64,000 bases of DNA, taken from positions 16,484 to 80,483 of IMG/VR virus record IMGVR_UViG_3300030101_002616. One strand, 5' to 3'. A program made the translations under genes and the position numbers. The stretch's first letter is position 1. Each line of letters opens with the position of its first letter. Source of the stretch: a virus. The notes under the pieces were generated by a model, which had not been told where the DNA came from, ran no database searches, and was given only the letters and a program-made list of their open reading frames with translations. Below are positions 636 through 29,526 of this stretch, piece after piece.

Positions 636-3600
636 ATGGCAAAGGGATTACAAACTTTTCTTAGTTATAAATACCTAAAAGATGCTTCAGGTATTCAATA
701 TCTTGTACTTATATCTCATGTAAGTAATCCTGTTATTGGTGCTGCAGGTCTTGGAAAGGGTTTTACTTTAACTCCTAAAACTGTAAGTACTTTAAAAGAT
801 GGTAACAGAGAACAAGTATATACTTATACAGGTTCTGGTAATGTAACCGCAAATTTTAAAGAAGGTCAAACTATAACTATCAGTGTATCTGATATTCCAA
901 AAGGCAGTGAACTTGCAGTTCCTTTTGACTCCTTAGAAAGATCTTTTAATTTTGATGTATCATCTGAATCTTTACTTGGGTATGATATATCTGATGCTTT
1001 ATTCTATTCAGAAGGTACGGCTAGCTATAGAGAAAGTTATATACTACCACAATCTAGTAATCCTCATTTAGATACTAGTAGCAGAACAGATTTTTATTAT
1101 ACAGCAGATGGCTCTGCTGCATACATGGGATCTACCAGCCTACAAAACAAATTTTTAAATAATATAGGTTATAGTAATAGAGGATCTGATAGTACTGATT
1201 TAGGTAAATTCAGAGGAGGATCTGATGATAATACTTCAGTTGAATTTACTACTACCCACCAAACTCCAGTTGCCGGACAAACAACTGGTCCTGCAACGCA
1301 AGGGGGTATAGTAGCATTTAGTTTTATACCTAGAACTAGTGCTGTTGATGACACCCCATTACCTATTATTGATGTATGTCAAGATCCTCAAGCTACTAAT
1401 TTCTATTTAACAGGCTGTATAAACGAAGAGTTACCCTGTGTAGATTCAGGAACTACTCATGCTAATGATTGTGAAGGAGTTGCTTTAACAGCAGATATAA
1501 TAAATAACAGCGTCTTAACTAATGGGTCATGTTGTGAATATACAACTGGATGTGAAGATTTTAATGTAGTTATAGGTGATATAACAGCAGCTAATATAGA
1601 CGTAGCAAATGGTACTATTAATATAACAGTATCTGGAGGAACGCAAAATTATACTGCAGTAGTTGGTGCTATAGAACTAGATAATCCAGAAAATTCATTT
1701 AGCACTCAAACTACAAATAGTATTTCTACTGATGAATTTACTCTTAGCAGTTTATTTCCTGGTAAATATAATCTTAGTGTAACAGATTCTACATCAGGTA
1801 CAGCTTGTAATCAAAGAATAGAGTTTATTGTACCACCAAAAGGATCTGATCCTGGTGGTGAAGGAGATTTTGGATGTAAAGATACTAGCTCAGCAATCAA
1901 TCACGATAACTCTGTTACTACACACCAAGATAGACTATGTGTTTTTTGTGATGCTGACTCTGGTTTATTATTTGCAGATTCTACTAATCCAACATTTTTA
2001 GGAAATGCTTTTGTTCCTACTTCTGACAGTCCTATTTTTAATTTTAATAATGCTACAAGCACTCCAGAAGGTGTAAGTATTGAAAATGGTTCACTTACTT
2101 TTCTTGGTGTTCAACTATTTAATGAAGATATTAACTTATCTGAGCCTCCTGCAGTTCATAATTTTAATCCTCTTGAAGAGTTTACTACTGATCAAGCTAG
2201 TATGTTTGATTATCAGTTGTACAGAATTGATTCAGAAGTAGACGGGTTACTGAATGAAATTAATCTTGCTGAATCAGGAAATGTAAAAGCTTGGCTAACT
2301 GCTAATGCAACAGCTGTAGGAAGTGTGGTTCAAACTACGGGTGCAGCACACTCATTTACAAGTTTAGGTCCAGGAACCTATACAGTATTAGTTACATATG
2401 ATGCAGATGGAACTCCAAATGGTGATCCAGAAGAAGAACAATGTTATTATGTACCTATACCTCAAACTGTCTATCAAAGAGGATGTACTGATCCAACTGC
2501 TGATAACTACAACACTGCTTTTGAGTCTGATCCAAATTCATTTTTACCAAGTGAGGGTTGTTTTTATCCGCCCCAAACTTGCAATGATCCAGGAATAGTA
2601 TTTGATGCTGTAGTTTCATGCAATGCAGACGACGGAACTATACAAATTGACTCAATAGATTTTGTATCACTTAATCCTGATATATTAGATGCAGGAGTAA
2701 ATGGGTTTATTGTAACTCAGGATCATGTAAACCCACCATTTGGAGCAGGAGTAATTGTTGCTGCAGGAGGATCTGGATTTGCTGCTCTTCAATATATTGC
2801 GTGGGAACTTTTTTGTTACGATCTTTTTAATAGTAGTATTGATCCTAATATGCATTGGATGAGTTTACCAGTTGGATTTCCTCAAGGCTATGTAAACTCT
2901 GAAGGTGTTGTACCTGCTAGTGGGGCTGGTAACCTTGCAAACATGTATAGAATACTTTCAACAATAACTTTTGCTGATGGAACTGATTTATTTCTTGGAG
3001 AAATAGGTTTAGGTGACCTTTTACCAAATACAGTTCCTTTTGATACTCCAAATCTTGTAAATTATGGTGAAGTAACTTGTGAGCATATAAGTACACACGG
3101 TACTCCTACTTCTGTAACATTTAATTATAACTATGGGGAATATAATGTATATGGAGAAAGCGCATCTTATACACATATTTTTACAATAAGTCAACTAGAA
3201 CAATTTACTGGTTGTTGTGAATTTTCAGAACCTGAACCTGAAGGCTGTACTGATCCTACTGCAACAAACTTTGATCCAGCTGCTATAATAGACGACGGTT
3301 CTTGTATTTACCCTGAACCCCCAGTGGTTCCAGGTTGCACAGACCCTACAGCTACAAACTTTGACCCACTTGCTACAGTCGACGATGGATCATGTGAATA
3401 CATTCAACAAGGTTCTTGGTTACAAGCTGATTGTTTTACTTGTTCTTACAATGAAAACTTTCCTAATGGATTTGAAACCCAAGAAGAGTGTGAAGATTCT
3501 ATTGAGTCTAACACAGACTGTTGTGTTCTTGAGACTTATGTTAATAATGCTGGTGATATTATGGGTACCCTTCCAGTATTAGATACAACTAACTCAAGTT

Positions 3601-5102
3601 CAATTTTTAATGATGTGACAGGATTATGTGACGATCAATCTACTGGTTCGTTCGTTTTTACTTTTCCTTCTGGTTTAAACAACAGTGTATTTAATATGAC
3701 TAGCAATGTATCTTTCTTTTGGAGAGTAGGTACTCTTTGTTGTCCTAGTGTACAATATAGTAATATCTGGTCCGGAGCTCTAACTAATGATTTTGGAGAG
3801 GTTACTGATGCAATTACTAATATGGATACGTCAGATTTAATAGATTTAACTGGTGCAACCCAGTCCATTACTGTGAATGGTATAGAAAGTGGACAATACA
3901 TAATGTGGTTTTATTTCTTTGATATACCTTTTGATGCTACTGGGGCAGACCCAATAAATGGCCTACCATACCAAGATGGTGGACAATCTTGTACTACTTA
4001 CACAGTAAATATTGATATTGGCATAGATGATTGTGATGATAGTATTGTACATGGTTGTACTGATCCTGAAGCAGATAATTATAATGAAAGTGCAACTGTA
4101 GATGATGGAACATGTACATACACAGATATTAATGACGACAATCCTGATGGTGGTGATGGTGGTGATCCAGGAGGTCCTGGTGGTCCTGATGAAGAAGTTG
4201 GTTGTGATTGCGGAGATGGTACATATTCTCCAGCATGTTGTCCACCTACTGCAATTTGTGGATGTCAAGATCCAAATGCAAGTAATTTTAATCCAAATGC
4301 CACTTATTATGATCCAACCGCAGATGGTTGTGGGTGTGAATATGATGGAGATCCTCCATTTGTAGGTGATCCACCAATTACATCAACTGTTTTAGCTTGT
4401 GTTCCTAGAACTATTCATAAATTAATAAGATACAATAATGAGTGTATAGCAAGGGCAGGTCATAGAGTTTATACTAAACATATAACGGGATTAGGCAATA
4501 GTTGTTCTAATATGGAAACTATGAAAATGGTTATTATTAATGATCTTATTAGTAGACTAGGGCTACCTTGTATATTTAATTGTTCAGATAATGATACGCC
4601 TGCTCCAGATACAGCTTCTAATGTTTGTAAAGATAATTGGACTAATAATGGTTCTTTATACTGGAATCCAGCAGATGCAGCAGCTAATATATATAATTTA
4701 GGAATACATGTTAGAAGACCATTTGTACCTAACCCAGGTGGTTTACCAGCACCTATATATGTTGCTATATCTAACTCTGGATTAGACATAGATCCATTCT
4801 CTAACAATTCAGCTAGTGGATGGAAGTTATGTAAAACAGAATCTATAGTAAATGAAAAGAATAATTATTTACCAAACTTTCTTAAATTTGCACACGAGTA
4901 TTGTAAAAATTGTGGAATACCTCCATATAGAATAGATGATACTCTTTCTTCAAGTGTTACAGATACATTTACTACTGGTGGAAATGATATAACAGCAGGG
5001 GGGACTACATTTGATAATACTTCAGATCAAACAGATCTAACAACTCTTGACGATATAGAGGGAAATGAAACAGATAACGAAACAGGAGGTTTATACTCTT
5101 AA
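636..5102 (+). CDS. Large acidic, Cys-rich putative virion protein with GCTDP repeats
   Basis: 1488 aa; about 7 GC(T/Q/K)DPxAxN(Y/F)...DDG(S/T)C units; SprB-like segment (NGTINITVSGGT...PGKYNLSVTDS); no signal peptide. Confidence 0.6.
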   Translation: MAKGLQTFLSYKYLKDASGIQYLVLISHVSNPVIGAAGLGKGFTLTPKTVSTLKDGNREQVYTYTGSGNVTANFKEGQTITISVSDIPKGSELAVPFDSLERSFNFDVSSESLLGYDISDALFYSEGTASYRESYILPQSSNPHLDTSSRTDFYYTADGSAAYMGSTSLQNKFLNNIGYSNRGSDSTDLGKFRGGSDDNTSVEFTTTHQTPVAGQTTGPATQGGIVAFSFIPRTSAVDDTPLPIIDVCQDPQATNFYLTGCINEELPCVDSGTTHANDCEGVALTADIINNSVLTNGSCCEYTTGCEDFNVVIGDITAANIDVANGTINITVSGGTQNYTAVVGAIELDNPENSFSTQTTNSISTDEFTLSSLFPGKYNLSVTDSTSGTACNQRIEFIVPPKGSDPGGEGDFGCKDTSSAINHDNSVTTHQDRLCVFCDADSGLLFADSTNPTFLGNAFVPTSDSPIFNFNNATSTPEGVSIENGSLTFLGVQLFNEDINLSEPPAVHNFNPLEEFTTDQASMFDYQLYRIDSEVDGLLNEINLAESGNVKAWLTANATAVGSVVQTTGAAHSFTSLGPGTYTVLVTYDADGTPNGDPEEEQCYYVPIPQTVYQRGCTDPTADNYNTAFESDPNSFLPSEGCFYPPQTCNDPGIVFDAVVSCNADDGTIQIDSIDFVSLNPDILDAGVNGFIVTQDHVNPPFGAGVIVAAGGSGFAALQYIAWELFCYDLFNSSIDPNMHWMSLPVGFPQGYVNSEGVVPASGAGNLANMYRILSTITFADGTDLFLGEIGLGDLLPNTVPFDTPNLVNYGEVTCEHISTHGTPTSVTFNYNYGEYNVYGESASYTHIFTISQLEQFTGCCEFSEPEPEGCTDPTATNFDPAAIIDDGSCIYPEPPVVPGCTDPTATNFDPLATVDDGSCEYIQQGSWLQADCFTCSYNENFPNGFETQEECEDSIESNTDCCVLETYVNNAGDIMGTLPVLDTTNSSSIFNDVTGLCDDQSTGSFVFTFPSGLNNSVFNMTSNVSFFWRVGTLCCPSVQYSNIWSGALTNDFGEVTDAITNMDTSDLIDLTGATQSITVNGIESGQYIMWFYFFDIPFDATGADPINGLPYQDGGQSCTTYTVNIDIGIDDCDDSIVHGCTDPEADNYNESATVDDGTCTYTDINDDNPDGGDGGDPGGPGGPDEEVGCDCGDGTYSPACCPPTAICGCQDPNASNFNPNATYYDPTADGCGCEYDGDPPFVGDPPITSTVLACVPRTIHKLIRYNNECIARAGHRVYTKHITGLGNSCSNMETMKMVIINDLISRLGLPCIFNCSDNDTPAPDTASNVCKDNWTNNGSLYWNPADAAANIYNLGIHVRRPFVPNPGGLPAPIYVAISNSGLDIDPFSNNSASGWKLCKTESIVNEKNNYLPNFLKFAHEYCKNCGIPPYRIDDTLSSSVTDTFTTGGNDITAGGTTFDNTSDQTDLTTLDDIEGNETDNETGGLYS

Positions 5103-7400: not shown

Positions 7401-7787
7401 ATGGGAACATTAAGTGTTAAATTAGAATTAATAAGTAGAGGTTTTGGAACCCCTACAAAAATAAGAGTTACAGATCTTATAACTACGACTAATCCTTCAC
7501 AAACTTTGTCTCGTGTAAGTGCAACCACTACAGGAGGTGACACTATCATTCTTCCTAATGCTAATGTAGAACGTTTTGTCTATATAAAACATTTAGGATT
7601 AAACTCAGCAGGAGCAAGAAACGTAACAGATAAATTAAAAGTAGAATATTCTGATGGCAATCATATAGCAGAGCTTAGAGCAGGAGAGTTTTTGTTTTTA
7701 CCTTATGACACAGGTGGATCAGCTCTTTTACAACTAGAAGCTTCTGCAAATACGATACAAGCAGAATATGCATTTTTTACTAGATAG
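7401..7787 (+). CDS. Small beta-rich hypothetical (putative virion) protein
   Basis: 128 aa, AT-rich leader. Confidence 0.45.
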   Translation: MGTLSVKLELISRGFGTPTKIRVTDLITTTNPSQTLSRVSATTTGGDTIILPNANVERFVYIKHLGLNSAGARNVTDKLKVEYSDGNHIAELRAGEFLFLPYDTGGSALLQLEASANTIQAEYAFFTR

Positions 7788-7788
7788 A

Positions 7789-8835
7789 ATGATTAGAGTA
7801 TTTGTAATATTATTAGTTTTCTTAATGTCTTGTGCAGCACCGAAAGAGTGTTGCTCACAGATTAAAAAAGCTATAAAGTTTTCTACATTCTATGTAGCAG
7901 CGAATGGAGGTACGTCTTTATCTGATAGAGAAGTATATTCTATAAATGGAAGTACACTTTTATATGATACTATTATTACTCCTTATGACTACTCATTATC
8001 TATGGGTATTCGTAAGATACAGAGGTTTCAATATGAAGGTACTTCACCATTTAAAGATGGTACAGAGTCATCATTTAGTGATGCTGCTAGTATAGGTAGA
8101 AACCCTTTTGAGTATTTATTTGAGATAGAATATAGAAGACAGGAGGGTGTAGAGTATTTTGATCAGCATCATTTTATAAGATATGCTAGATCTAAGTGGT
8201 TTACAAAAGCAGAATATATTAAAGATGGTTTTGCAGACATAGAGTATTTTGAGGGTACACACAGACTACGACTGAATGGTGGTAAAAAACTATCATTCAA
8301 CATAGGCGCTGTACAAAGATTAGCAGAGCCGTATGGATATGATCCATTAGAAGAGTGGACTATGTCTACAGGTGATATACACTATACACAACTAGCTATT
8401 GAAGAGGGATATAGTATAGATGTATATGAATCTGAGTATAGAGCACCAGATGGTGCAATTGTAGCAAATAGTGCTGAGGTATGGAATCAGATAGTTATGC
8501 CAGAAGTATTAGAAAATTATGTAGAAAAGAAACGAAATGAACTAGCTAATCAATGGCAGCATTCATTAGTAATAGGTTTTGATTTCTATCACTATAAGAA
8601 AAACTTTTGGTTACACTCTTGGGGTAACTTTATGCCTTACCATTATAATGATGGTGGACAATATTCTTATCATAATTTTAATGATGGAGAGCAGTGGTAT
8701 GATTACTCAGGAGGATTAATATTTGGACTGAAAGCAACAAAACACTTAGGATGTTTTATTGAAGGTAAATACAATAAGTATTGGAATAAAGAATGGTACG
8801 ATTTTAAATTAGGAATTAACTACGTTATATTTTAA
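7789..8835 (+). CDS. Putative outer-membrane beta-barrel protein with signal peptide
   Basis: Start at 7789 gives MIRVFVILLVFLMSC; aromatic-rich amphipathic strands; C-terminal YDFKLGINYVIF resembles a BamA beta-signal. Confidence 0.55.
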   Translation: MIRVFVILLVFLMSCAAPKECCSQIKKAIKFSTFYVAANGGTSLSDREVYSINGSTLLYDTIITPYDYSLSMGIRKIQRFQYEGTSPFKDGTESSFSDAASIGRNPFEYLFEIEYRRQEGVEYFDQHHFIRYARSKWFTKAEYIKDGFADIEYFEGTHRLRLNGGKKLSFNIGAVQRLAEPYGYDPLEEWTMSTGDIHYTQLAIEEGYSIDVYESEYRAPDGAIVANSAEVWNQIVMPEVLENYVEKKRNELANQWQHSLVIGFDFYHYKKNFWLHSWGNFMPYHYNDGGQYSYHNFNDGEQWYDYSGGLIFGLKATKHLGCFIEGKYNKYWNKEWYDFKLGINYVIF

Positions 8836-8837
8836 AA

Positions 8838-9116
8838 ATGGCAACTGAAATAGGAAAAGACACTAAAATTAAATTAAGTTTAGAAACAATAATATCTTTA
8901 GGATTTGTATTAGTAACTATGACTGGTATGTGGTTTACACTAAAAGGGGAGATAGCTGAAGCAAAAGAATTACCAGTAGCTCCAGATCCAGAAGTAACAC
9001 GTATGGAGTTTGATATGAAAGATCAAATGATACGTAACACTATTATGAATACTCAAGAAGATGTAACTGAAATAAAAGCTACATTAGAAAAGATAGAAGA
9101 TAAACTTTATAAATAA
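8838..9116 (+). CDS. Single-TM protein with C-terminal coiled coil
   Basis: IISLGFVLVTMTGMWFTL hydrophobic helix, then heptads VTEIKATLEKIEDKL. Confidence 0.55.
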   Translation: MATEIGKDTKIKLSLETIISLGFVLVTMTGMWFTLKGEIAEAKELPVAPDPEVTRMEFDMKDQMIRNTIMNTQEDVTEIKATLEKIEDKLYK

Positions 9117-9454
9117 TGTGGAAAGTTATATACAAGCATTTATTATTTTTATTTTTTTGTACGGTCTCGTATACTGCTTTTTCACAGATCACAGTGATTC
9201 ACTTTAACGCTGGCTGGAACGAAGCTAATGATGTAGAGTGGTTTGATAAATTATCAGACGCTGGTAAAAAAAGTTTAAGTATTGACGATAAAGACATACA
9301 AAAGGAATATGCTATTGCTATTGTACCTACTATCATTGTGTTTGATGAGGGCGAAGAAGTAAAACGTTTTCAAGCAGATCTTAGTTTTGAGATGGTGGCT
9401 ACAAGAAAAGAGATACAGAATTACATCGACGAATTAATAATGAGTAAATTTTAA
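9116..9454 (+). CDS. Secreted thioredoxin-fold protein lacking CxxC
   Basis: Signal peptide ending AFS-Q; VIHFNAGWNEAN where FxAxWCxxC is expected; YAIAIVPTIIVFDEGEEVKRF matches the Trx cis-Pro region. Confidence 0.65.
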   Translation: MWKVIYKHLLFLFFCTVSYTAFSQITVIHFNAGWNEANDVEWFDKLSDAGKKSLSIDDKDIQKEYAIAIVPTIIVFDEGEEVKRFQADLSFEMVATRKEIQNYIDELIMSKF

Positions 9455-9455
9455 T

Positions 9456-10337
9456 ATGGCAAATATTTTAGGATTAGGATTAAGCACAATAAAAGGATCA
9501 ACAGTTGATCAACCATATGCTACAAGGTTTGCTAGCTTTAATGGATCAAGTAGTAAGGCTTTAGCAGCACCAGGTAGACTGCCTTTAATATTAGCAGGTA
9601 GTGGTACTCTTGGAGAGAATATAACATTTTCTATGTGGATAAAGGCTACATGGACTATACCTGCAAGTCCAGCTGATGCAGTAGTTAACAATATACCATT
9701 TTTTATGTTAGGTAGTGATACAGATGTGCATGAAGCGTTTAGAATGTATTATATGATAGAAGACGGTTCTGCTAACAATAAAAATGATGTTGTTATGGAA
9801 CTAAGAAGTTCAACTCCTAGTAATTCTAGACAAAATGAAATAATGAGATTAAGCGCTACAGGCGGCAGTCCAAGCAATTCGACTATAACAGGTAGTAGTG
9901 CCGCTGATCACGATAAAATGTGGGACAGTGATAACTCTGCTATAACAACAAATAATGATGGATTTGTACATATAGTTTGTAGTAGAGGTACCTTAGATTG
10001 GAAAATATTTTGGAATGGTATTAACTGTGAAGTGATAGACAATGATTCAGGCTCATTAAACACAGATGTAACTGAGTTTGATTCTTTTAGTATAGGATAT
10101 TGGGAGTATGCTGATGCTTATGGTCAACTAGGTGTAAGAGATTTTGCAATATATAATAGTCAACTATCTGGTTCAGATGTAACTGCATTATACAATGGTG
10201 GAGTACTAGCTGATCATAGAGATTTAATTACACCACAGCCTATAGTATATTATCCTTTTGAAGAAGATGGTAATGACGTAATAATATCTACAGGACCACA
10301 CTTAACTTTAACCGATGTAACTTTTGAAAATATATAA
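9456..10337 (+). CDS. LamG/concanavalin-A-like domain protein
   Basis: ITFSMWIK, FVHIVCS, RDFAIYNSQLSGSDVTALYNGG, YYPFEE pattern. Confidence 0.65.
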   Translation: MANILGLGLSTIKGSTVDQPYATRFASFNGSSSKALAAPGRLPLILAGSGTLGENITFSMWIKATWTIPASPADAVVNNIPFFMLGSDTDVHEAFRMYYMIEDGSANNKNDVVMELRSSTPSNSRQNEIMRLSATGGSPSNSTITGSSAADHDKMWDSDNSAITTNNDGFVHIVCSRGTLDWKIFWNGINCEVIDNDSGSLNTDVTEFDSFSIGYWEYADAYGQLGVRDFAIYNSQLSGSDVTALYNGGVLADHRDLITPQPIVYYPFEEDGNDVIISTGPHLTLTDVTFENI

Positions 10338-12346
10338 TGAATAACTTTACTAAATTTTTATACGCATTTTTAATAGTCGCAGTATTTACTGCAGCTTCAG
10401 CGTTTGGACAATGTCCTCCAGGATCTTGGAGTTTAGATATAACTGTAAATCCTGATCAATATCCAGAAGAAACAACTTGGCATTTAGTTACGTTTAGTGG
10501 TGACACTTTGTTAGAAGGTGGGCCATATACTAATATAGTAGATTATGAACCACAGTACGCAGGTATATGTGTACCTGTTGATAGTTTTCTGTTTATATTA
10601 AACGATCAATATGGTGACGGTGTTGCAGGTAGCTTGTGGGGTGGTAATGATGGTTCTATTTATATAGAGCAATGTGGTGATACTATATGGACTTTACCTG
10701 TAGCTGATTTTGGCTATCAAATATATGATACAATATATACTTCTGGATGTCCTCCGCCCCCACCAATATACGGGTGTATGGATAGCAGTTATGTAGAGTT
10801 TGACTTAACAGCTACATTAGACACAGGTATGTGTTTTACACCAAAGATATATGGATGTACAGACTCATTAGCATATAATTATATAGACTCAGCTAATACA
10901 GATATAAATATAGATAGCTGTATGCATGAGTTAGAATTAACCGACTTAGCTGGAAATGGCTGGGCTGGTTCTTCATTAAAACTATCACAGGCAACTAGTA
11001 TGATGCCGCCATTTAACTATCAAGTTATTGGTACGTATACATTGCTAGATGGTTTTGATACAACGTTCTTTATAAATTTAGCAGCAGGGTATCCTGTTAG
11101 AGCAGTGTTTGAAATTACACAGCAATCAGACTTTACTGCAGTACAATGTGGCTATAGCTTATATTCTGAAGATTATGTAGCTATAGATATAGAAGGTGGA
11201 TTTGTAAATCCTATACCTCCATTCTTTCCTATTATGGGAGATCCATACTGCGGTAATAATTGTATAGAAAGAACATATGGTTGTATAGACAGCCTAGCAG
11301 TAAATTATAACAATACAGTAAATACAGATGATGGAACTTGTTACTATAATCCAGGGTGTACTAATCCACTTTATTTGGAGTATGACGCGGCTTATGACTA
11401 TGACGATGGTAGTTGTATTACGATGGTTGTATACGGATGTATGGACTCAACTGCACTTAATTACGATCCATTGGCTAACGTTGAGTTACCTAACTCTTGT
11501 ATTGCTATCGTAGAAGGGTGCACTGACAGTACAATGTTTAATTATAATATCAATGCAAATGTTGATGATGGTAGTTGTATATCTTTTTACTACGGATGTA
11601 CAGACCCAACAGCATTTAACTATGATAGCTTAGCGAACACAGACGACGGCTCATGCATATCCGTTGTTTGGGGCTGCACTGACCCTGCGGCCTTTAACTA
11701 CAATTCATTAGCTAATAGCGATGATGGATCATGTATACCAGTAATATTTGGTTGTACAGATCCTAGTATGTTTAACTATTGTGACACTTGTAACACAGAT
11801 AATGGTAGTTGTATACCTTACATATATGGATGTATGGATAGTACAGCTATGAATTATGATGCTACAGCTAACACAGATAATAACACTTGTATATATCCAT
11901 TCCCTGGTTGTATGGATATTACAGCTGTAAACTATGAACCGTTAGCTAATGTTACTGATAGTAGTTGTTACTATGAGTCAGGGTGTGATGCAAGTGTTCC
12001 ATATTATATACCTAACTCGTGTTTTGAATGGGTTATACAAGTAGATCCATATTGCTGTGATAATAGTTGGGATGAGCCTTGCTATGATTTATATAACTAT
12101 TGTGTAGATGGTTGGACAGGTCCTACAGACATAGCAATGTTTGAGAGAGTAGGCGTACTACCATATCCTAATCCATCAACAGGTGTAGTAAACTTTACAG
12201 CTGAGGTAGGAATAAAAGTATACGACATGTTAGGTAAGTTGATATTAGAAGATAAATCAAATACAATAAAACTTAACAAAGGTATATATCTAATTAAGAT
12301 TTCTAAGGAAAACTTAAACATAACAACAAAACTAATTATAGAATGA
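10337..12346 (+). CDS. Secreted GCTD-repeat protein with T9SS type-A C-terminal sorting domain
   Basis: Signal peptide ending AFG-Q; 11 GCxD repeats; C-terminal YPNPSTG...VYDMLGK...KGIYLIK...TKLIIE. Confidence 0.75.
   Translation: MNNFTKFLYAFLIVAVFTAASAFGQCPPGSWSLDITVNPDQYPEETTWHLVTFSGDTLLEGGPYTNIVDYEPQYAGICVPVDSFLFILNDQYGDGVAGSLWGGNDGSIYIEQCGDTIWTLPVADFGYQIYDTIYTSGCPPPPPIYGCMDSSYVEFDLTATLDTGMCFTPKIYGCTDSLAYNYIDSANTDINIDSCMHELELTDLAGNGWAGSSLKLSQATSMMPPFNYQVIGTYTLLDGFDTTFFINLAAGYPVRAVFEITQQSDFTAVQCGYSLYSEDYVAIDIEGGFVNPIPPFFPIMGDPYCGNNCIERTYGCIDSLAVNYNNTVNTDDGTCYYNPGCTNPLYLEYDAAYDYDDGSCITMVVYGCMDSTALNYDPLANVELPNSCIAIVEGCTDSTMFNYNINANVDDGSCISFYYGCTDPTAFNYDSLANTDDGSCISVVWGCTDPAAFNYNSLANSDDGSCIPVIFGCTDPSMFNYCDTCNTDNGSCIPYIYGCMDSTAMNYDATANTDNNTCIYPFPGCMDITAVNYEPLANVTDSSCYYESGCDASVPYYIPNSCFEWVIQVDPYCCDNSWDEPCYDLYNYCVDGWTGPTDIAMFERVGVLPYPNPSTGVVNFTAEVGIKVYDMLGKLILEDKSNTIKLNKGIYLIKISKENLNITTKLIIE
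11279..11972 (+). repeat. Nine tandem ~26-aa GCxDxxAxNY...DDGSC repeats
   Basis: Visible in translation, e.g. GCTDPTAFNYDSLANTDDGSCI / GCTDPAAFNYNSLANSDDGSCI. Confidence 0.85.
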
Positions 12347-12810
12347 AATTAGAAGTATTAAGATTTAGCTCACAGTCAGACTGTACACATGGATTGTTGT
12401 TTGAAGTAAATGATTTAGGCAGACACTTCTTGTGCTATACATTAGAAGACGAACATCGTGTTCTAAAAGTAAAAGGCGAGACAAGAATACCATCAGGTAC
12501 ATATAAAATAGAACTAAGAAAAGAAGGAGGATTTCATGCTAGATACGATAAAAAATATCCTGGTATACACCGTGGTATGTTGCATGTCATTGATGTTCCT
12601 GGTTTTGAGTATATTCTTATTCATACTGGAAACACTGACGAGCATACTGCTGGTTGTCTTATCGTTGGAGACAGTCAAGAAAACAATCTTATTCTCCGCG
12701 ATGGGTTCGTTGGTAAGAGCGTTAACGCGTATAAGAGGATTTATCCAGCTATTGCAAAGGCAATAGAACAAGGAGAAGAAGTAACGATAGAATATATTGA
12801 TTTTGATTAA
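12343..12810 (+). CDS. DUF5675-type putative peptidoglycan peptidase (endolysin candidate)
   Basis: CYTLED, ETRIPSGTY, ILIHTGNT..HTAGCLIVG His/Cys motif. Confidence 0.7.
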   Translation: MKLEVLRFSSQSDCTHGLLFEVNDLGRHFLCYTLEDEHRVLKVKGETRIPSGTYKIELRKEGGFHARYDKKYPGIHRGMLHVIDVPGFEYILIHTGNTDEHTAGCLIVGDSQENNLILRDGFVGKSVNAYKRIYPAIAKAIEQGEEVTIEYIDFD

Positions 12811-14942: not shown

Positions 14943-15362
14943 ATGATACAAAAAGTAATGGGCGGATTATTTGGCAAAGTGCTAGACAACGCTGAAGGAA
15001 TACTAGACAAAGTAATTACAACTGATAAAGAAAGAGATCAGGCTAAGATAGAATTACAAAAGATAATGCTAGAAGCAGAACGTGAAGCTTTTGCTAAAGA
15101 AGTAGAAGATAGAAAGTCTGCAAGAGATATGTATAAAGATGATGCTATCATCCAAAAAGTGTTAGCAACTTTGTTCACAGTTGCATACTTTGGTATTAGT
15201 TTTGTGATGTTTAATCACTTTGTTCTAGGAGATATAAACTTGGGAGAGTTTGAAATTAGCTTTATTTCTACTATCTTTGGAGCAATGTCGGCAAAAGTCA
15301 ACACAATTGTTGATTTCTTTTTTGGCGGCAGTTCAAAGAAAAATAGTAACGAAGACAAATAA
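14943..15362 (+). CDS. Holin (3TM/GTA-holin-like)
   Basis: N-terminal amphipathic helix, coiled coil, DRKSAR, two TM helices, FFFGGSS end. Confidence 0.65.
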   Translation: MIQKVMGGLFGKVLDNAEGILDKVITTDKERDQAKIELQKIMLEAEREAFAKEVEDRKSARDMYKDDAIIQKVLATLFTVAYFGISFVMFNHFVLGDINLGEFEISFISTIFGAMSAKVNTIVDFFFGGSSKKNSNEDK

Positions 15363-19008: not shown

Positions 19009-19298
19009 TGGCTGTAAGAAAAACTGCTGCAGGCGCTAGACTAAAGCGTTGGTTTAAAGAAAAGTGGAGAACACCTCGTGGTAATAAAGACTACAGTGGA
19101 GGTGAGAACACATTTAGACCTACTAGACGTATATCTAAAGATACACCATCTACGTGGTCTGAACTGTCTGCATCAGAGAAGGCTAGAGCTCAGCAAGAGA
19201 AGAATACTAAAGGAAGAGTTAGTAGATATAAAAAGAAAAAGAAAGTTAAACGTGCGAAGGGTGGTGGATTTATACTACCTGGACCAACAATGATATAA
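19008..19298 (+). CDS. Basic protein, DUF5872-like
   Basis: LKRWFKEKW...RPTRRISKDTPSTWSELS. Confidence 0.5.
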   Translation: MAVRKTAAGARLKRWFKEKWRTPRGNKDYSGGENTFRPTRRISKDTPSTWSELSASEKARAQQEKNTKGRVSRYKKKKKVKRAKGGGFILPGPTMI

Positions 19299-19300
19299 CT

Positions 19301-19570
19301 ATGGCAACACCAGCATGGCAAAGAAAAGCAGGAAAGAATCCTAGCGGTGGGTTAAACGCTGCAGGAAGACGATCTTATAATCAATCTACAGGTGGTAATT
19401 TAAAAGCTCCTAGTAAAAAGAAAGGAAACAAAAGACGCTCTAGTTTCTGTAGTAGAATGTGCGGCATGAAAGCTAAACGTACAGGAGCTAAAGGTCAAAG
19501 AGATCCTAAATCAAGAATTAACAAATCGCTACGTGCATGGAATTGTGGTAGCTGTAGTAACTGGAGATAA
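19301..19570 (+). CDS. Basic protein, DUF6321-like
   Basis: GKNPSGGLN...LKAP...RRSSFCSRM...SRINKSLRAWNC. Confidence 0.55.
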   Translation: MATPAWQRKAGKNPSGGLNAAGRRSYNQSTGGNLKAPSKKKGNKRRSSFCSRMCGMKAKRTGAKGQRDPKSRINKSLRAWNCGSCSNWR

Positions 19571-25452: not shown

Positions 25453-28400
25453 ATGGCAAAATCAAGAGCTCAACAAGCAGCAATAGCAATATCAATGAAG
25501 AAAGCAGGTAAGAAGCCTAGACTAAGAAAGAAACAAAAGGGTGGAGAGTATACTGTTAAGAGTGGAGATGCTATGTATAAAATAGCTAAGAAATATAACA
25601 TGTCCACAAGCGACTTAATGGCACTAAATCCTGAAATTAACGAAAGAGGTGATATTCGTCCAGGACAAAAGATAATTACAAAAGCGCCTTCAGAGTCTTT
25701 CTTTGACAACTTTAATCTGCCTTCAGGTAAAAAGGCGGTTAAAGAAGTTTTGCAAACATCTACTGGTATAAATCAGGCAGATTTCTTAGGGCTTATACCT
25801 GCAAATGTTAAAGCTTTTGTTTCTGATATTACAGGTATAGGTAAGTCAGAAGGTATTACTGAAAAAGATCTTAATAACAGGGAAAAGAAAGCTCTAAGAG
25901 AAGCTATAAAAAGAGCTGAGGAAAAAGGTAAAAATTATATTGAATATCCAGATTTTGCATCGGCTGCTGAACCAACATCAGACATCGGTGGAGGAACTTT
26001 TTTACAAGGCTTTGCTCCTATAACAAAATATTTTGATCCTAAGTATTCTATGAAAACTCTGTTAGGACAGGCTAAATTTAAAAAGAATAAAGATGGCACT
26101 TATACAGTGACTGATCAGTTTAATTTTAATGATGCTAGTAAAGCTGGATTTAAAGGAGTTATTGCAGACATTAAAGATCAAGGCATTGCAGGACTTTCTC
26201 CTTATAAGTTTGCAAGAAATATTGCAAGAAACTTTGGTTCTGCTGAAGGTGAGGGTATGGATGTAAACATTACATTTCAAAAAGGTGGTGTAAGCGATAC
26301 AATAAAAGTAAGCTCAACAGATCAAGCAGTTGCTAAAAAGAAACTTCAGAATAAGTTTAATGGTAGAATACCAAATAACGCAGTTCTTACTTATGACAAA
26401 GATACTGGGAAGTATACATACACAGTTCCTCCAACCCCTCCTAAAGTAGATCAAAAAAAGGAAGGCGGTTATCCTAAGAGCAGTAACAAAGAGTTCATGA
26501 GACGTATGGGTTACTACCAAGGAGGTGGATTAAATCAAACTCCTATGTACGGCTCTAACACTATACCGGGTACACCAGAAACAGCTGCTATCACATATCA
26601 AGAAGCAGATCAATCTAGACTAAAAGCATTAGAAGAACAATTAAAAGAAGCTCAAGAGTCAACTAAGTTTCAAGATGAAGCAGAGGCAGAAGTTGCTAAA
26701 CAAGCATCTACTATTAGTGGTATAGAACAAGGACTATCACAAGGTGTAAAAGGCCTAGATAAACTTGGAGCGTTTGATAAGTTAAAAGAGAAAGGTGCTG
26801 AAAAAACTGAAGCTTTATCAAAGCTAGGAGAGAATGCTGCTACAAATCTTGCTAGAGTAGGAGCTACTAAGGCAGACGAGGTAAGCAAAATTTTAGCTGA
26901 TCAGTTAATACCCAAAGGAGGAAAAGTTATTGACGTTGCTAAAGATAAACTAAACATGGGTTTAGGTACTGATTACATGGGTGGTTTTGGATCAGATCAA
27001 GCAGCGAAGTTTGGAGAGATGCTTCAGCAATCAAATCCACAACAAGTTATATTGAGAGAGGGTGCAGAAGAAGCACTTAAACAAACCACTACGAATGTAG
27101 CAAGTGGTTTAACTCCTGCTCAATACGGAAACATAGGGGCAGTTGCATCACTTGCAGGTGAAGGTATTAAGATGGCATCAGACGATAAAGATGCTACTAC
27201 AATGAATGTAGGAGAAAGTGTGGGTTCAGGACTGTCAGGTGTTGGTACAGGTATTGGTGCAGCAACAACTACAGCTATGCTAATGGGAGCTCCTTTAGGT
27301 CCTGTAGGTATGGCTGCAGGTGTAATTGGTGGAGCTGCATATGGTTTAGGTAAAGGACTTATACAAAGAGGTAAGGCTAGGAGAGAAGAAGAGAAAGCTG
27401 AAAGAAAAAAAGAGAAACAGTTATCAAAAATAGGAACACAGAGTAGATTAGAAGCACTTAAGTCTAAACAGTATTCAGGATTTGATTTTGGTGCTGATGT
27501 TAGACAGGGTGGAGGATTTAGTGGAACGTTAGATAACATACAAGACGGATTAACACTAGCTGGATTAGCAGGGCCTGTAGGACCTTTTGCAGATATAGCT
27601 AATACTGTTATTTCTGCAGGTAGAGGAATTTATTCTGGTGTAACAGGAGATACAACAGCAGCTAAAAAACATGCAGTGAACACAGGCCTTAATTTAGTTT
27701 CAGCTATACCAGTTATAGGTGATACAATATCAGCTCCTAAAGCAATAAAAGCAGGAGCAAATTTAGCTCAGAAGGCCGTAGTAAAAGGAAAGAAAGTTAA
27801 GTCAGGAGCAAATATATTACAAGCTGCAAACATTATAAATCCTGCTGGTAACTTCCAACCTTCTGTAGATATGAATCAAACATTTGCTTCAGAAACAACT
27901 GGGGTTAGACCTCCAATAATTCCAGAGATGATGAATTTACCTAAGTTTCCACAGCAACCTCCTATACCAAAGATAGGACCTAGTACAAGAAAAAATGGTG
28001 GTGTAAAACTGCCAGGTGGTGTAGCTAAGCCTATACCAGGATCTGATGCTATAGAGTTCAAAGGTAGAAGTCATGCACAAGGTGGTATCATGGTAGACCC
28101 TATGACAGAAGTAGAGGGCAATGAAACAATGGATAAAGTAACTATGAATAAAGGTGGTAAAAGAGATTACTTCTTCTCACAACATTTAAAGATGGGGGGC
28201 AAGTCATTCGCACAGAGACATAAAGATATATTAAAGAAAGGCGGTAGTCAAAAAGATATTGACTCGTTAGCTAAACTACAAGAAAAGAAAGCAGGTAGAA
28301 ATCCTAACACTGTTAAGTTAGGTGCAGGTGGTTACTATCAAGGTGGCGGAATGTTTAAGAAAAACCCTAACGATTTTGGTCAGACTTATGATGATGGAAC

Positions 28401-29526
28401 CCCAGTATACAATGACCAAGGTTTAGTACAACCTCCAGCTTCTTTAGTTCAAGATTTTCAAAATAGAATGTTCCCACAGGTAATACAAGATCCTGTAGTA
28501 GGTGATTTCGATCCTATAACAGACATACCTTCAGCAACAACAACTAATAATACTAAAAACGAACCTACTAATACCACTAATAATGAAGAGGAACGTATTG
28601 TAGATGGAAATGTTGAACTTTTAGATCCTATACAAGTTACTCAAATACCTGTAGACGATACCATGCCACCAACATTACAGCCTATTGCTGTTGATGAAAA
28701 TGGTATGCCTATAGAATCTGACTACAACTCGCTTTCAGATGAAGATAAGAGTGTAGTAGATAAAGCAAACTCAGGAGCTGATCTAACAGACTTAGAGAAA
28801 AAAGCTTTAAAGAGATTACGTAGAGATGTTCCTGGTCTAGCTATAGGTGCGGGGGTTGCACAACTTATTGCACCTGCATATGCATTCTTTAAGAAAGATA
28901 GAGTAGCAGAGCAGATGGGTGCGCCTGGTAGAATCAAAGCTCCTACACTAGATAGAGTAAGCTATAACACTGAGCGTGCTGCTAATGCTGCAGATAATAG
29001 AGCTATGAATAGGTTCATTGAGACTAGTGGTATTGGACCGGCTGGTATCATTGCTAAGATGTCTGCGTATAGACGTAAGCAAGAAGGTGATCTAAAGATT
29101 GCTGCACAAGAGTCTAGAGTAAATACTCAGATTGCAAATCAAGAAGCGCAGATGGCTCAGCAAGCTAATGCAAGAAACGTTGCTAATGCAATGCAGGCAG
29201 ATCAAATTAATACTCAGTTAAGAGAAGCACAGTTAGCCGCTAATCAAGATAGAAGACTAGAAGCTATAGACTCATTTACAGAAAGAACTGCAGGACTAGC
29301 TGGTGATCTAATGGCATACAAAGGTACTGAAAGGTTAGCAAGAGCTACTGGCGATATGGGTATCTATGAAAGAGATAGACTAAGAACATTCTTAAAGAAT
29401 CAAGTTAATCCTAGAACAGGTCAGCCATATACAAATGCTGAAATAGCTGAACTATTTAACAAACGTTTTGGTGAAGCTCAAGCAACTAAAGAAGATAAAG
29501 AAGATAAACAAGATGAGCAGATATAA
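25453..29526 (+). CDS. Virion cargo/ejection protein with LysM domain
   Basis: YTVKSGDAMYKIAKKYNMS...LNP...IRPGQKI (LysM); GRSHAQGGI..EVEGNE; G/A-rich hydrophobic segments; no Cys seen. Confidence 0.65.
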   Translation: MAKSRAQQAAIAISMKKAGKKPRLRKKQKGGEYTVKSGDAMYKIAKKYNMSTSDLMALNPEINERGDIRPGQKIITKAPSESFFDNFNLPSGKKAVKEVLQTSTGINQADFLGLIPANVKAFVSDITGIGKSEGITEKDLNNREKKALREAIKRAEEKGKNYIEYPDFASAAEPTSDIGGGTFLQGFAPITKYFDPKYSMKTLLGQAKFKKNKDGTYTVTDQFNFNDASKAGFKGVIADIKDQGIAGLSPYKFARNIARNFGSAEGEGMDVNITFQKGGVSDTIKVSSTDQAVAKKKLQNKFNGRIPNNAVLTYDKDTGKYTYTVPPTPPKVDQKKEGGYPKSSNKEFMRRMGYYQGGGLNQTPMYGSNTIPGTPETAAITYQEADQSRLKALEEQLKEAQESTKFQDEAEAEVAKQASTISGIEQGLSQGVKGLDKLGAFDKLKEKGAEKTEALSKLGENAATNLARVGATKADEVSKILADQLIPKGGKVIDVAKDKLNMGLGTDYMGGFGSDQAAKFGEMLQQSNPQQVILREGAEEALKQTTTNVASGLTPAQYGNIGAVASLAGEGIKMASDDKDATTMNVGESVGSGLSGVGTGIGAATTTAMLMGAPLGPVGMAAGVIGGAAYGLGKGLIQRGKARREEEKAERKKEKQLSKIGTQSRLEALKSKQYSGFDFGADVRQGGGFSGTLDNIQDGLTLAGLAGPVGPFADIANTVISAGRGIYSGVTGDTTAAKKHAVNTGLNLVSAIPVIGDTISAPKAIKAGANLAQKAVVKGKKVKSGANILQAANIINPAGNFQPSVDMNQTFASETTGVRPPIIPEMMNLPKFPQQPPIPKIGPSTRKNGGVKLPGGVAKPIPGSDAIEFKGRSHAQGGIMVDPMTEVEGNETMDKVTMNKGGKRDYFFSQHLKMGGKSFAQRHKDILKKGGSQKDIDSLAKLQEKKAGRNPNTVKLGAGGYYQGGGMFKKNPNDFGQTYDDGTPVYNDQGLVQPPASLVQDFQNRMFPQVIQDPVVGDFDPITDIPSATTTNNTKNEPTNTTNNEEERIVDGNVELLDPIQVTQIPVDDTMPPTLQPIAVDENGMPIESDYNSLSDEDKSVVDKANSGADLTDLEKKALKRLRRDVPGLAIGAGVAQLIAPAYAFFKKDRVAEQMGAPGRIKAPTLDRVSYNTERAANAADNRAMNRFIETSGIGPAGIIAKMSAYRRKQEGDLKIAAQESRVNTQIANQEAQMAQQANARNVANAMQADQINTQLREAQLAANQDRRLEAIDSFTERTAGLAGDLMAYKGTERLARATGDMGIYERDRLRTFLKNQVNPRTGQPYTNAEIAELFNKRFGEAQATKEDKEDKQDEQI

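What the first reader, a model, noticed from the sequence alone, without database searches (positions are those of the whole stretch)
10337..12346. Phage-encoded cargo for the host type IX secretion system
Seen: Sec signal peptide with Gln at +1, 11 Cys-paired repeats, and a C-terminal YPNP/YDMLG/GIY/KLIIE domain. Known: this signature is the type-A CTD that routes Bacteroidota proteins through T9SS to the surface. Inference: the phage uses host T9SS to display or release a disulfide-rich protein, which could mask receptors, exclude superinfection, promote adhesion or jam T9SS. It cannot be an ordinary virion protein assembled in the cytoplasm.
Basis: partly seen in the sequence, partly recalled or inferred. 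Interest (0 to 1): 0.78.

Follow-up and report, generated by a model that had tools for sequence, protein, structure and literature searches.

The report
Phage-encoded type IX secretion cargo
An uncultured marine crAss-like phage carries a gene for a cysteine-rich, adhesin-like protein bearing both export signals of its Bacteroidota host's type IX secretion pathway. The infected cell probably displays or releases this phage protein; the idea has been noted before in metagenomes but never tested.

Summary
ORF 10337..12346 (+, 669 aa) has a Sec-type leader ending AFG|Q, 11 Cys-paired ~26-aa repeats, and a C-terminal domain that scores above the curated cut-offs of TIGR04183 (41 vs 23 bits) and PF18962 (40.6 vs 27).

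The window is a real phage: an 80.5-kb IMG/VR crAss-like genome with terminase, portal, capsid, a phi14:2-type virion RNA polymerase, rIIA/B and a replication module. It is not a chimera, because independent assemblies and Logan contigs from two studies bridge both gene junctions.

The gene is widespread, with more than 7,400 homologues. It sits in a conserved four-gene envelope cassette: a 12-strand outer-membrane barrel, a membrane-anchored coiled coil, a CxxC-less thioredoxin fold, and the cargo.

The passenger is conserved at 70-95%, while the leader and CTD drop to 30-40% yet stay under purifying selection (dN/dS 0.10-0.29). About a fifth of homologues replace the CTD with a short ~38-aa tail. 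That tail also ends dozens of secreted enzymes of uncultured marine Flavobacteriales.

Export through T9SS is well supported by sequence but untested, and the function is inferred. Phage-encoded T9SS cargo was already reported (Bellas 2020; de Jonge 2019). This scan has also noted the same cassette on other DNA. I class it as a new member of a known kind.

The parts
10337..12346 (+). Whole cargo gene, 669 aa: leader, two beta-sandwich domains, 11 Cys repeats, Cys-rich motif, type-A CTD
10337..10408 (+). Sec/SPI-type signal peptide (aa 1-24), predicted cleavage AFG|Q, following the Bacteroidetes Q-rule
   Evidence: sequence; Q25 kept in >=90% of homologues; leaders in all homologues; Q-rule in PMC5837995
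10409..10756 (+). Domain nA (aa 25-140): beta-sandwich with an invariant D-x-YGDG-x-x-G loop
   Evidence: AF2 model pLDDT 85.5; best match is a Ca-dependent CBM, 2xhh, Z 6.6, which is only generic; invariant columns
10757..10927 (+). Cys repeats 1-2 (aa 141-197), after a PPPPP linker
10928..11254 (+). Domain nB (aa 198-306): second beta-sandwich with a D-x-x-GNGW-x-G loop
   Evidence: PLAT-like match 1lox, Z 6.0, generic
11255..11974 (+). Cys repeats 3-11 (aa 307-546); copy number varies between strains
   Evidence: homologues range from 608 to 1117 aa; joints inside the array in Logan contigs
11975..12136 (+). Cys-rich module (aa 547-600) with invariant W-V-I-x-x-D-x-Y-C-C-x-x-x-W-D-x-x-C
   Evidence: invariant columns
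12137..12343 (+). T9SS type-A C-terminal sorting domain (HMM match aa 610-669)
   Evidence: dN/dS 0.10-0.29
7768..8835 (+). Cassette partner 1: exported 12-strand outer-membrane beta-barrel, a phage-specific family ending in ...NYVIF. The likely start is the ATG at 7789.
   Evidence: AF2 pLDDT 75, pTM 0.70; Foldseek gives 155 OM-barrel hits at E<=1e-3; Tsx Z 13.6, EstA 12.7, KdgM 12.4, NanC 12.0; not PorP/SprF; only 409 clusters in 1.84 billion proteins
8838..9116 (+). Cassette partner 2: 92-aa protein with one N-terminal membrane helix and a charged helical tail
   Evidence: sequence; conserved next to the barrel
9116..9454 (+). Cassette partner 3: exported thioredoxin-fold protein with no CxxC (FNAGWNEAN at the active-site position)
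   Evidence: weak Trx hits; sequence; leaders ending in Q
9456..10337 (+). Optional insert: 293-aa leaderless ORF, found in only a few related phages
12343..12810 (+). Downstream neighbour DUF5675 (phrog_1501), overlapping the cargo stop codon by 4 nt
636..5102 (+). Leaderless 1488-aa Cys-rich tail-region protein carrying 3-4 copies of the same repeat

Best explanation
The gene encodes a phage-made substrate of the host's type IX secretion system.

Inferred pathway:
1. The Sec system exports the precursor and signal peptidase I cuts before Gln25, which fits the Bacteroidota 'Q-rule'.
2. The 37-Cys passenger folds and oxidises in the periplasm.
3. The host T9SS translocon and shuttle (SprA/PorV type) recognise the C-terminal type-A CTD and carry the protein across the outer membrane.
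4. The CTD is then cleaved, and the passenger is either anchored on the surface or released.

The passenger has no enzyme signature. It consists of two small beta-sandwiches with Ca/CBM-like loops, carried on a stalk of disulfide-stapled repeats. Marine Flavobacteriales use the same modules in their own giant T9SS surface proteins. It is therefore most likely a binding or coating protein.

It works within a conserved phage cassette with a phage-specific outer-membrane barrel, a membrane-anchored coiled coil and a redox-dead thioredoxin fold. Together these would remodel the envelope of the infected cell late in infection. The purpose I favour is to mask or occupy surface receptors, so that further phages, including progeny, are not wasted on infected cells and debris.

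The sorting ends (leader and CTD) are exchanged between phage lineages, which I read as matching them to the host's secretion machinery.

Shown here: the signals, their conservation and selection, the cassette and the module sharing. Inferred: export, processing, surface display and purpose.
For: CTD: above the curated cut-offs in two libraries. It is aligned by profile to CTDs solved inside the F. johnsoniae translocon. 29 of 34 homologues hit TIGR04183. CTD dN/dS is 0.10-0.29.

Leader: present in all complete homologues, and Q25 is nearly invariant. The barrel and Trx-like partners have leaders of the same Q type. The Q-rule is specific to Bacteroidetes (PMC5837995).

Phage identity: terminase, portal and capsid; virion RNAP like phi14:2 gp66, 6VR4; polymerase closest to crAss-like phages; rIIA/B, primase and helicases; CheckV 93%.

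Not a chimera: start and stop codons overlap with both neighbours. The same gene order occurs in 51+80 IMG/VR loci from many samples. Logan contigs from two studies bridge positions 10337 and 12343.

Cassette linkage holds in both search directions, even where the gene order is permuted.

Host-type modules: the repeat occurs in more than 100 ORFs of marine Flavobacteriales MAGs. Some of these also carry nA/nB, MAM, SprB, CBM48 or fn3 domains together with PF18962. Those MAGs encode PorP/SprF-family T9SS proteins.

Signal swapping: the body is 70-95% identical while leader and CTD are 30-40%. L181 has a 70%-identical body but a different tail. CTDs are not interchangeable between species (PMC11285876).

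Receptor context: T9SS and gliding mutations give phage resistance in Flavobacterium.
Against: No experiment, RNA or proteome evidence exists, and no RNA run holds the locus. The host is unknown, and no close donor of this CTD was found.

The gene sits in the late structural region among tail-fibre-like genes. The same Cys repeat occurs in a leaderless tail-region protein, so a link to the virion is not excluded.

Structure matches for nA and nB are only generic (Z<=6.6), so 'binding module' is an inference. About a fifth of homologues lack any recognisable CTD model. The time available for export in a lytic cycle is unknown.
Confidence: 0.62

Rival explanations
1. T9SS decoy or jammer. The protein takes the same Sec-plus-CTD route, but its role is to occupy the translocon or PorV shuttles. 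Host cargo such as adhesins, gliding proteins and phage receptors would then stop reaching the surface. The passenger would matter mainly as a bulky, slow-to-transport load.
For: Genuine CTD and leader. A rigid passenger with many disulfides. T9SS-dependent surface proteins are linked to phage sensitivity in Flavobacterium. Earlier scan notes describe cargo-less CTD genes in other phages; these are unchecked leads.
Against: The passenger domains nA, nB and the repeats are the most conserved parts (70-95% identity, dN/dS 0.09-0.6). That argues the passenger has a specific function of its own. A plug would not need a conserved partner barrel and Trx-fold protein.
Confidence: 0.12
2. Part of the lysis or outer-membrane disruption apparatus. 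The barrel, the membrane-anchored coiled coil (i-spanin-like) and the exported proteins would act at the end of infection to breach the envelope. The CTD protein would be an accessory that reaches the outer membrane through T9SS.
For: The cassette lies beside DUF5675, which has a weak Tlde1-like hit, and a holin-like 139-aa ORF with a weak holin PHROG hit at 3e-4. The 92-aa protein has a single N-terminal membrane helix followed by a charged helical tail.
Against: No spanin, holin or lysin family hit was found for any of the four cassette genes. A 340-aa barrel and a 669-aa adhesin-like protein resemble no known lysis factor. DUF5675 and the holin-like gene are often separated from the cassette by several kb in relatives.
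Confidence: 0.1
3. Virion (tail-fibre accessory) protein. The C-terminal domain would serve only as an Ig-like structural or binding domain, and the hydrophobic N-terminus would not be a functional leader, as with false signal-peptide calls on capsid proteins.
For: Location in the structural gene block near fibre-like ORFs. The same repeat occurs in the leaderless 1488-aa ORF. Ig-like domains are common on phage virions (own knowledge).
Against: The leader sequence varies greatly yet always keeps leader architecture and Gln at +1. Three neighbouring genes are also exported. The CTD is swapped for a tail that otherwise ends secreted host enzymes. No PHROG virion family matches.
Confidence: 0.07
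4. Assembly artefact: a host gene stitched into a phage contig.
For: All modules of the protein also occur in Flavobacteriales genomes.
Against: Start and stop overlap with phage neighbours, and GC content is uniform. More than 130 independent viral contigs share the arrangement. Contigs from two studies bridge both junctions. Bacterial loci carrying the repeat lack the cassette.
Confidence: 0.01

Closest known systems
Type-A CTD substrates of the Bacteroidota T9SS (TIGR04183/PF18962), e.g. the F. johnsoniae CTDs solved in translocon complexes 8GLJ and 8GLK, and P. gingivalis RgpB
   Same: N-terminal Sec leader, a passenger, and a ~70-aa C-terminal domain with the family motifs. The HMM match is full length and above the cut-offs.
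   Different: It is encoded by a lytic-type crAss-like phage, not by the cell. The passenger is a compact non-enzymatic array of Cys repeats. Secretion has not been tested.
'Cryophage' T9SS-CTD genes: endoglucanase, GH39 and PA14 protein (Bellas et al. 2020, PMC7468147)
   Same: Phage genome from a metagenome encoding proteins with type-A sorting domains. The genes vary between phage variants. The authors proposed hijacking of the host T9SS.
   Different: Different phage type and habitat (glacier cryoconite). The passengers there are enzymes or PA14. No conserved partner cassette and no exchange of sorting signals was described.
T9SS sorting-domain proteins next to crAss-BACON ORFs in gut phage contigs (de Jonge et al. 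2019, PMC6949934)
   Same: Phages of Bacteroidota with CTD-bearing ORFs near structural genes.
   Different: Gut lineages with BACON passengers. The paper mentions them only in passing, without analysis of leader, selection or neighbours.
Multidomain surface proteins of marine Flavobacteriales MAGs, e.g. loci L080 and L090
   Same: Same Cys repeat, nA/nB-like domains, leader and PF18962 CTD.
   Different: The host proteins are 900-2300 aa and add MAM, SprB, CBM48 or fn3 domains. The phage version is a trimmed 600-800-aa form with its own conserved neighbours.
Phage-encoded envelope proteins that block receptors, e.g. T5 Llp and phi80/N15 Cor (own knowledge, not tested here)
   Same: A phage protein exported to the outer membrane of the infected cell. 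The proposed purpose is also the same: superinfection exclusion and protection of progeny.
   Different: Those are small lipoproteins of enterobacterial phages that use the Lol pathway. There is no sequence or fold relation, and the analogy is functional and hypothetical.

Membership tests
T9SS type-A CTD cargo (TIGR04183 / PF18962) | C-terminal domain matches the family model above the curated cut-off | tested here: met
   41 bits vs 23; 40.6 bits vs 27; 29 of 34 homologues also match
T9SS type-A CTD cargo (TIGR04183 / PF18962) | The domain lies at the extreme C-terminus | tested here: met
   Match covers aa 610-669 of 669 and model positions 2-72 of 72
T9SS type-A CTD cargo (TIGR04183 / PF18962) | N-terminal Sec signal peptide for crossing the inner membrane | tested here: met
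   Judged by inspection only, with no SignalP: n-, h- and c-regions with AFG|Q. Leaders are present in all complete homologues, and Q25 is kept in at least 90%.
T9SS type-A CTD cargo (TIGR04183 / PF18962) | Seven-strand Ig-like beta-sandwich fold of the CTD | not tested
The only evidence is a profile alignment to solved CTDs 8GLJ_D and 8GLK_D, E 3e-5.
T9SS type-A CTD cargo (TIGR04183 / PF18962) | The producing cell has a T9SS (Bacteroidota/FCB) | tested here: inconclusive
   The host is unknown. Indirect evidence: Q-rule leaders; crAss-like lineage; modules shared with Flavobacteriales MAGs that encode 3-15 PorP/SprF-family proteins.
T9SS type-A CTD cargo (TIGR04183 / PF18962) | Secretion depends on T9SS genes and on the CTD | not testable with these tools
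   Needs expression in wild-type and gldNO/sprA/porV mutant flavobacteria
T9SS type-B CTD (TIGR04131) or type-C CTD (NF033708) cargo | Match to the type-B or type-C model above its cut-off | tested here: not met
   Type B does not appear at E<=1. Type C scores 15.6 bits against a cut-off of 40.
PorP/SprF outer-membrane partners of T9SS cargo (TIGR03519), considered for the neighbouring barrel | Sequence or profile similarity to the PorP/SprF family | tested here: not met
   No NCBIfam or Pfam hit. hhalign of A3 against 10 PorP-family proteins from Flavobacteriales MAGs gives probability 6.7%. The fold is a generic 12-strand barrel.
Thioredoxin (redox-active), considered for the neighbour 9116..9454 | CxxC active site | tested here: not met
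   FNAGWNEAN stands at that position. Trx model hits are only sub-threshold.
crAss-like phages (Crassvirales-type genome) | Giant virion RNA polymerase of the phi14:2 gp66 type, plus family-A polymerase and capsid/portal/terminase genes of crAss type | tested here: met
   The 2041-aa ORF hits 6VR4 at E 2.5e-25. The polymerase's best hits are cr108_1, cr111_1 and IAS virus. Terminase, portal and major head PHROGs match. Formal taxonomy was not assessed.

The most novel reading that the evidence does not exclude
The sorting ends of this phage cargo behave as exchangeable cassettes tuned to the host. On a conserved passenger, the type-A CTD is replaced in about a fifth of lineages by a ~38-aa tail (consensus ..LI.VTD[IL]LGR....KN.LLFFIY.DGTVEKK.I..) that no T9SS model recognises. 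The same tail ends at least 120 exported proteins of uncultured marine Flavobacteriales, including nucleases, a multicopper oxidase, an M43 peptidase, esterases and PKD proteins. If this tail is a functional, previously unmodelled minimal T9SS signal, it would define a new class of sorting tag. The tag on a phage's cargo would then become a culture-free marker of which Flavobacteriales clade that phage infects. The four-gene cassette, with its phage-specific barrel, would be a phage-built surface-display device.
Probability: 0.35. Interest if true: 0.75.

Novelty: new member of a known kind. Interest (0 to 1): 0.55.

Why it matters
T9SS substrates build the surface of Bacteroidota: adhesins, gliding proteins and enzymes. 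In flavobacteria that surface decides phage sensitivity.

This cargo gene is very common. It has more than 7,400 homologues and lies in at least 590 viral loci. It is under selection, and it belongs to a fixed envelope cassette of abundant marine crAss-like phages. That suggests infected cells are routinely re-coated by their phage, which would affect superinfection, particle attachment and carbon cycling in the sea.

The locus also offers natural domain-swap material for a practical question: which parts of a T9SS signal are recognised, and how specific is recognition to the host? The swaps include type-A CTD variants and a short tail on one conserved passenger.

Tried and rejected
1. I first read the megablast hit to Pelagibacter phage Greip as lying in the repeat region. 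It is given in query coordinates and lies at window ~19291-19546. Local blastn of the cargo against that locus finds nothing, so the lead was withdrawn.
I used IMG/VR loci instead.
3. PHROGs gave no hit for the cargo, the barrel or the 293-aa ORF. tblastn of the barrel against GenBank phages gave no match. The cargo found only a repeat-level hit in one marine virus.
4. Foldseek with the two-domain model aa 25-312 found nothing at E<=1e-3. VIA-wide gave only generic beta-sandwiches at Z<=6.6, so no fold-based function is claimed.
5. The PorP/SprF hypothesis for the barrel was rejected by profile comparison.
6. A search for a bacterial donor of the window's own CTD found only generic CTD similarity at <=47% identity, so the host cannot be assigned this way.
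7. The sigma-70 promoter and terminator scan was at background level, and Bacteroidota promoters are not covered by that tool.
8. No listed sequencing run holding the locus is on record as RNA, so there is no evidence on expression either way.
A fixed degenerate pattern worked.
10. A literature search for a described short or new T9SS CTD class in marine Flavobacteriia found none in the held library.
Full report
OBSERVATION

Its first 24 residues form a classical Sec/SPI leader. There is a Lys-containing n-region, a 17-residue hydrophobic core, and A-F-G before Gln25. No signal-peptide predictor was available, so this is read from the sequence. However, all complete homologues have such a leader, and Gln25 is kept in at least 90% of them. 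Gln at +1 is the Bacteroidetes 'Q-rule' for SPI substrates (PMC5837995).

Eleven repeats of about 26 aa, each with a Cys pair 19-21 residues apart, start at aa 144, 171, 313, 338, 365, 392, 418, 444, 470, 496 and 522. The protein has 37 Cys in total.

The C-terminus matches TIGR04183 over the whole model (E 1.4e-10, 41 bits, cut-off 23) and PF18962 (40.6 bits, cut-off 27). Type B and type C models do not reach their cut-offs. A profile of the family aligns to CTDs solved inside F. johnsoniae T9SS substrate complexes, 8GLJ_D and 8GLK_D, at E 3e-5.

IS IT A PHAGE, AND IS THE GENE REALLY PART OF IT?

The window is bases 16484-80483 of an 80,483-bp IMG/VR virus record with a CheckV completeness of 93%.
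- The upstream part encodes terminase, portal and major head protein.
- The window encodes virion structural proteins, rIIA/rIIB, primase, helicases and an exonuclease.
- Its family-A polymerase has crAss-like phages as nearest relatives.
- A 2041-aa ORF is related to the virion RNA polymerase gp66 of Cellulophaga phage phi14:2, PDB 6VR4, E 2.5e-25.

It is therefore a marine crAss-like phage.

The cargo ORF shares its first base with the last base of the stop codon of the upstream ORF, and it overlaps the downstream ORF by 4 nt. GC content is uniform across the region.

The same arrangement recurs in 51 viral loci fetched with the cargo and in 80 fetched with the neighbouring barrel; that second search had at least 591 confirmed candidates. 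Logan contigs from two different studies bridge both junctions:
- X1 record 5 covers 9698-10885.
- X5 record 28 covers 9326-10851.
- X1 record 8 covers 11658-12294.
- X5 record 31 covers 12168-12374.

A chimera is excluded. Four 'MAG' contigs that carry the gene also carry the phage cassette, so they are mis-binned phage.

ANATOMY OF THE PASSENGER

An AlphaFold model of aa 25-312 (pLDDT 85.5) shows two beta-sandwiches, nA and nB, separated by a proline linker and two repeats. Structure searches gave only generic matches. The best was a Ca-dependent carbohydrate-binding module (2xhh, Z 6.6) for nA and a PLAT domain (Z 6.0) for nB. I claim no more than 'small beta-sandwich, possibly a binding module'.

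Both domains keep an invariant D-x-(Y)G(D/N)G-x-x-G loop. No enzyme family matches any part of the passenger.

All module types recur in exported proteins of uncultured marine Flavobacteriales. The repeat occurs in 111 ORFs of 70 loci, and nA/nB in seven. In those proteins they are combined with MAM, SprB, CBM48 and fn3 domains and with PF18962 tails. Three such genomes encode 3-15 PorP/SprF-family T9SS proteins.

The phage protein thus looks like a trimmed copy of a host-type T9SS surface protein.

Being Cys-rich does not by itself prove export.

THE CASSETTE

The cargo is almost always accompanied by three other exported proteins.

(i) A ~345-aa protein with a leader and a terminal ...NYVIF.
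- It is predicted (pLDDT 75, pTM 0.70) to be a 12-strand outer-membrane barrel.
- Foldseek returns 155 hits at E<=1e-3, and every one of the about 40 listed is an outer-membrane-type beta-barrel or channel protein.
- The top VIA matches are Tsx Z 13.6, EstA barrel 12.7, KdgM 12.4 and NanC 12.0.
- It is not related to PorP/SprF by profile comparison (probability 6.7%).
- Its family is small: 409 clusters among 1.84 billion representatives.

(ii) A ~92-aa protein with one N-terminal membrane helix and a charged helical tail.

(iii) A ~110-aa exported thioredoxin fold without CxxC.

The four genes stay together even where their order is permuted (L035, L047, L053, L055, L137, L180 and others). 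The one clear exception has the barrel directly followed by DUF5675 (L130).

The 293-aa ORF between the Trx-like gene and the cargo is an occasional insert. DUF5675 and a weakly holin-like ORF lie downstream.

EVOLUTION OF THE SORTING SIGNALS

Across 26 close homologues, mean pairwise identity is:
- 73-80% in nA, nB and repeats 1-2
- 72% in repeats 3-11
- 36% in the leader
- 40% in the CTD

The combinations are mosaic. L012, for example, has 87% identity in the CTD but only 51-57% in nA and nB.

Within a CTD type, dN/dS is 0.10-0.29, so the domain is maintained by selection in phage genomes.

About a fifth of homologues (L040/43/44/51, L178-L204) end instead in a ~38-aa tail. That tail hits no type A, B or C model even at E<=1. 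One of these homologues, L181, has a body 70% identical to the window protein. The tail has therefore been exchanged on a conserved passenger.

A degenerate DNA pattern for the tail's core, IYxDGTVE[KR]K, should occur about once by chance under a uniform-composition estimate.
- In 128 of 132 matches the motif ends 2-6 residues before a stop codon.
- The host consensus is ..kkLikivDiLGretk..kN.pLFYIYDDGTVEKKIIiE.
- Most complete carriers start with MKKLLL-type leaders.
- Their passengers include Exo_endo_phos nucleases, a multicopper oxidase, an M43 peptidase, an esterase, and PKD and LVIVD proteins.
- None of them hits PF18962.

By eye, the tail resembles the C-terminal half of a type-A CTD (VTDILGR against VYDMLGK, then a final hairpin ending in basic and hydrophobic residues). 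I could not test this structurally.

CTDs are not freely interchangeable between species (PMC11285876). That makes host-matching a reasonable reason for the swapping.

MECHANISM

Best-supported reading (confidence 0.62): Sec export, SPI cleavage before Gln25, oxidative folding in the periplasm, recognition of the CTD by the host T9SS, and surface display or release of a binding-type passenger. The protein would act together with the phage barrel, the coiled coil and the Trx-fold protein to remodel the infected cell's envelope.

I favour receptor masking, or protection of progeny from adsorbing to infected cells and debris. T9SS-dependent surface proteins govern phage sensitivity in Flavobacterium (10.1101/2020.10.02.323337 and PMC9804748). 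The purpose remains an inference.

The rivals are a T9SS-jamming decoy (0.12), a role in lysis or outer-membrane disruption (0.10), a virion accessory protein (0.07) and an assembly artefact (0.01).

COMPARISON AND NOVELTY

The gene meets the sequence-level criteria of a type-A CTD cargo. Dependence on T9SS and the CTD fold were not tested.

Phage-encoded T9SS cargo is not a new idea. Bellas et al. 2020 described three CTD-bearing genes in 'Cryophage' and proposed hijacking of the host system (PMC7468147). De Jonge et al. 2019 noted T9SS sorting-domain ORFs in gut phage contigs (PMC6949934). Q-rule leaders on P. gingivalis phage proteins were noted in PMC10367356.

This scan has also recorded similar findings on other DNA, including what appears to be the same four-gene cassette in another genome (e1-3410721). 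Those notes are unchecked and did not set my scores.

What this locus adds:
- a non-enzymatic, adhesin-like passenger
- its great abundance in marine crAss-like phages (more than 7,400 homologues)
- the fixed envelope cassette
- the exchange of sorting signals, including the short tail shared with many host secreted enzymes

I class it as a new member of a known kind, with interest 0.55. The short tail is the lead most worth following.

TOOLS THAT WERE UNAVAILABLE OR UNINFORMATIVE

No RNA run holds the locus.

Noticed in passing
loci L220-L339 (marine Flavobacteriales MAGs); phage loci L040, L043, L044, L178-L204: A ~38-aa C-terminal tail (..kkLikivDiLGretk..kN.pLFYIYDDGTVEKKIIiE) ends at least 120 exported proteins of uncultured marine Flavobacteriales, including nucleases, a multicopper oxidase, an M43 peptidase, an esterase and PKD proteins. 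It replaces the type-A CTD on some phage cargo homologues. PF18962, TIGR04183 and the type B and C models do not recognise it. It may be an unmodelled short sorting tag.
   Followed up: partly
window 636-5102 (+): A leaderless, very Cys-rich 1488-aa tail-region protein carries 3-4 significant copies of the same repeat as the secreted cargo, plus a weak SprB-repeat hit. How a cytoplasmically made virion protein handles so many Cys is unexplained.
   Followed up: partly
window 19301-19570 (+): An 89-aa very basic ORF is about 76% identical at the DNA level over ~256 bases to gp45 of Pelagibacter phage Greip (MT375525), which is annotated, doubtfully, as 'RecA-like'. A small gene is thus shared between phages of hosts from different phyla.
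   Followed up: partly
window 11300-11950: Logan contigs show many skips and back-joins inside the repeat array, and homologues range from 608 to 1117 aa. Repeat copy number is polymorphic between strains.
   Followed up: partly
loci L053-L056: Contigs filed under Sphingobacteriales, Parvibaculum, Rickettsiales and Flavobacteriales MAGs carry the phage cassette. They are probably phage contigs mis-binned into MAGs.
   Followed up: partly
locus L130 (IMGVR_UViG_3300037847_004773): One relative has the barrel gene followed directly by DUF5675, with no coiled-coil, Trx-like or cargo gene. It is a natural 'cassette-minus' variant that could be useful for comparison.
   Followed up: no
window 7768-7860 and homologues: The barrel's leader comes in two forms among relatives. 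One is a plain SPI type ending ..AQ. The other is a lipobox-like ..SCA(x)PK(x)CCSQ form, which is the one in the window. The two forms suggest alternative lipoprotein or SPI processing.
   Followed up: no
window 12343-12810 and 14943-15362: DUF5675 (phrog_1501, with a weak Tlde1-like hit) and a 139-aa two-helix ORF with a weak holin PHROG hit travel together in many relatives. They may be the lysis genes of this phage group.
   Followed up: no
window 25453-29526 (+): A 1357-aa ORF in the giant-protein block has N-terminal LysM and endolysin-like matches (phrog_7348, E 3.7e-27). It is probably a virion-borne cell-wall hydrolase.
   Followed up: no
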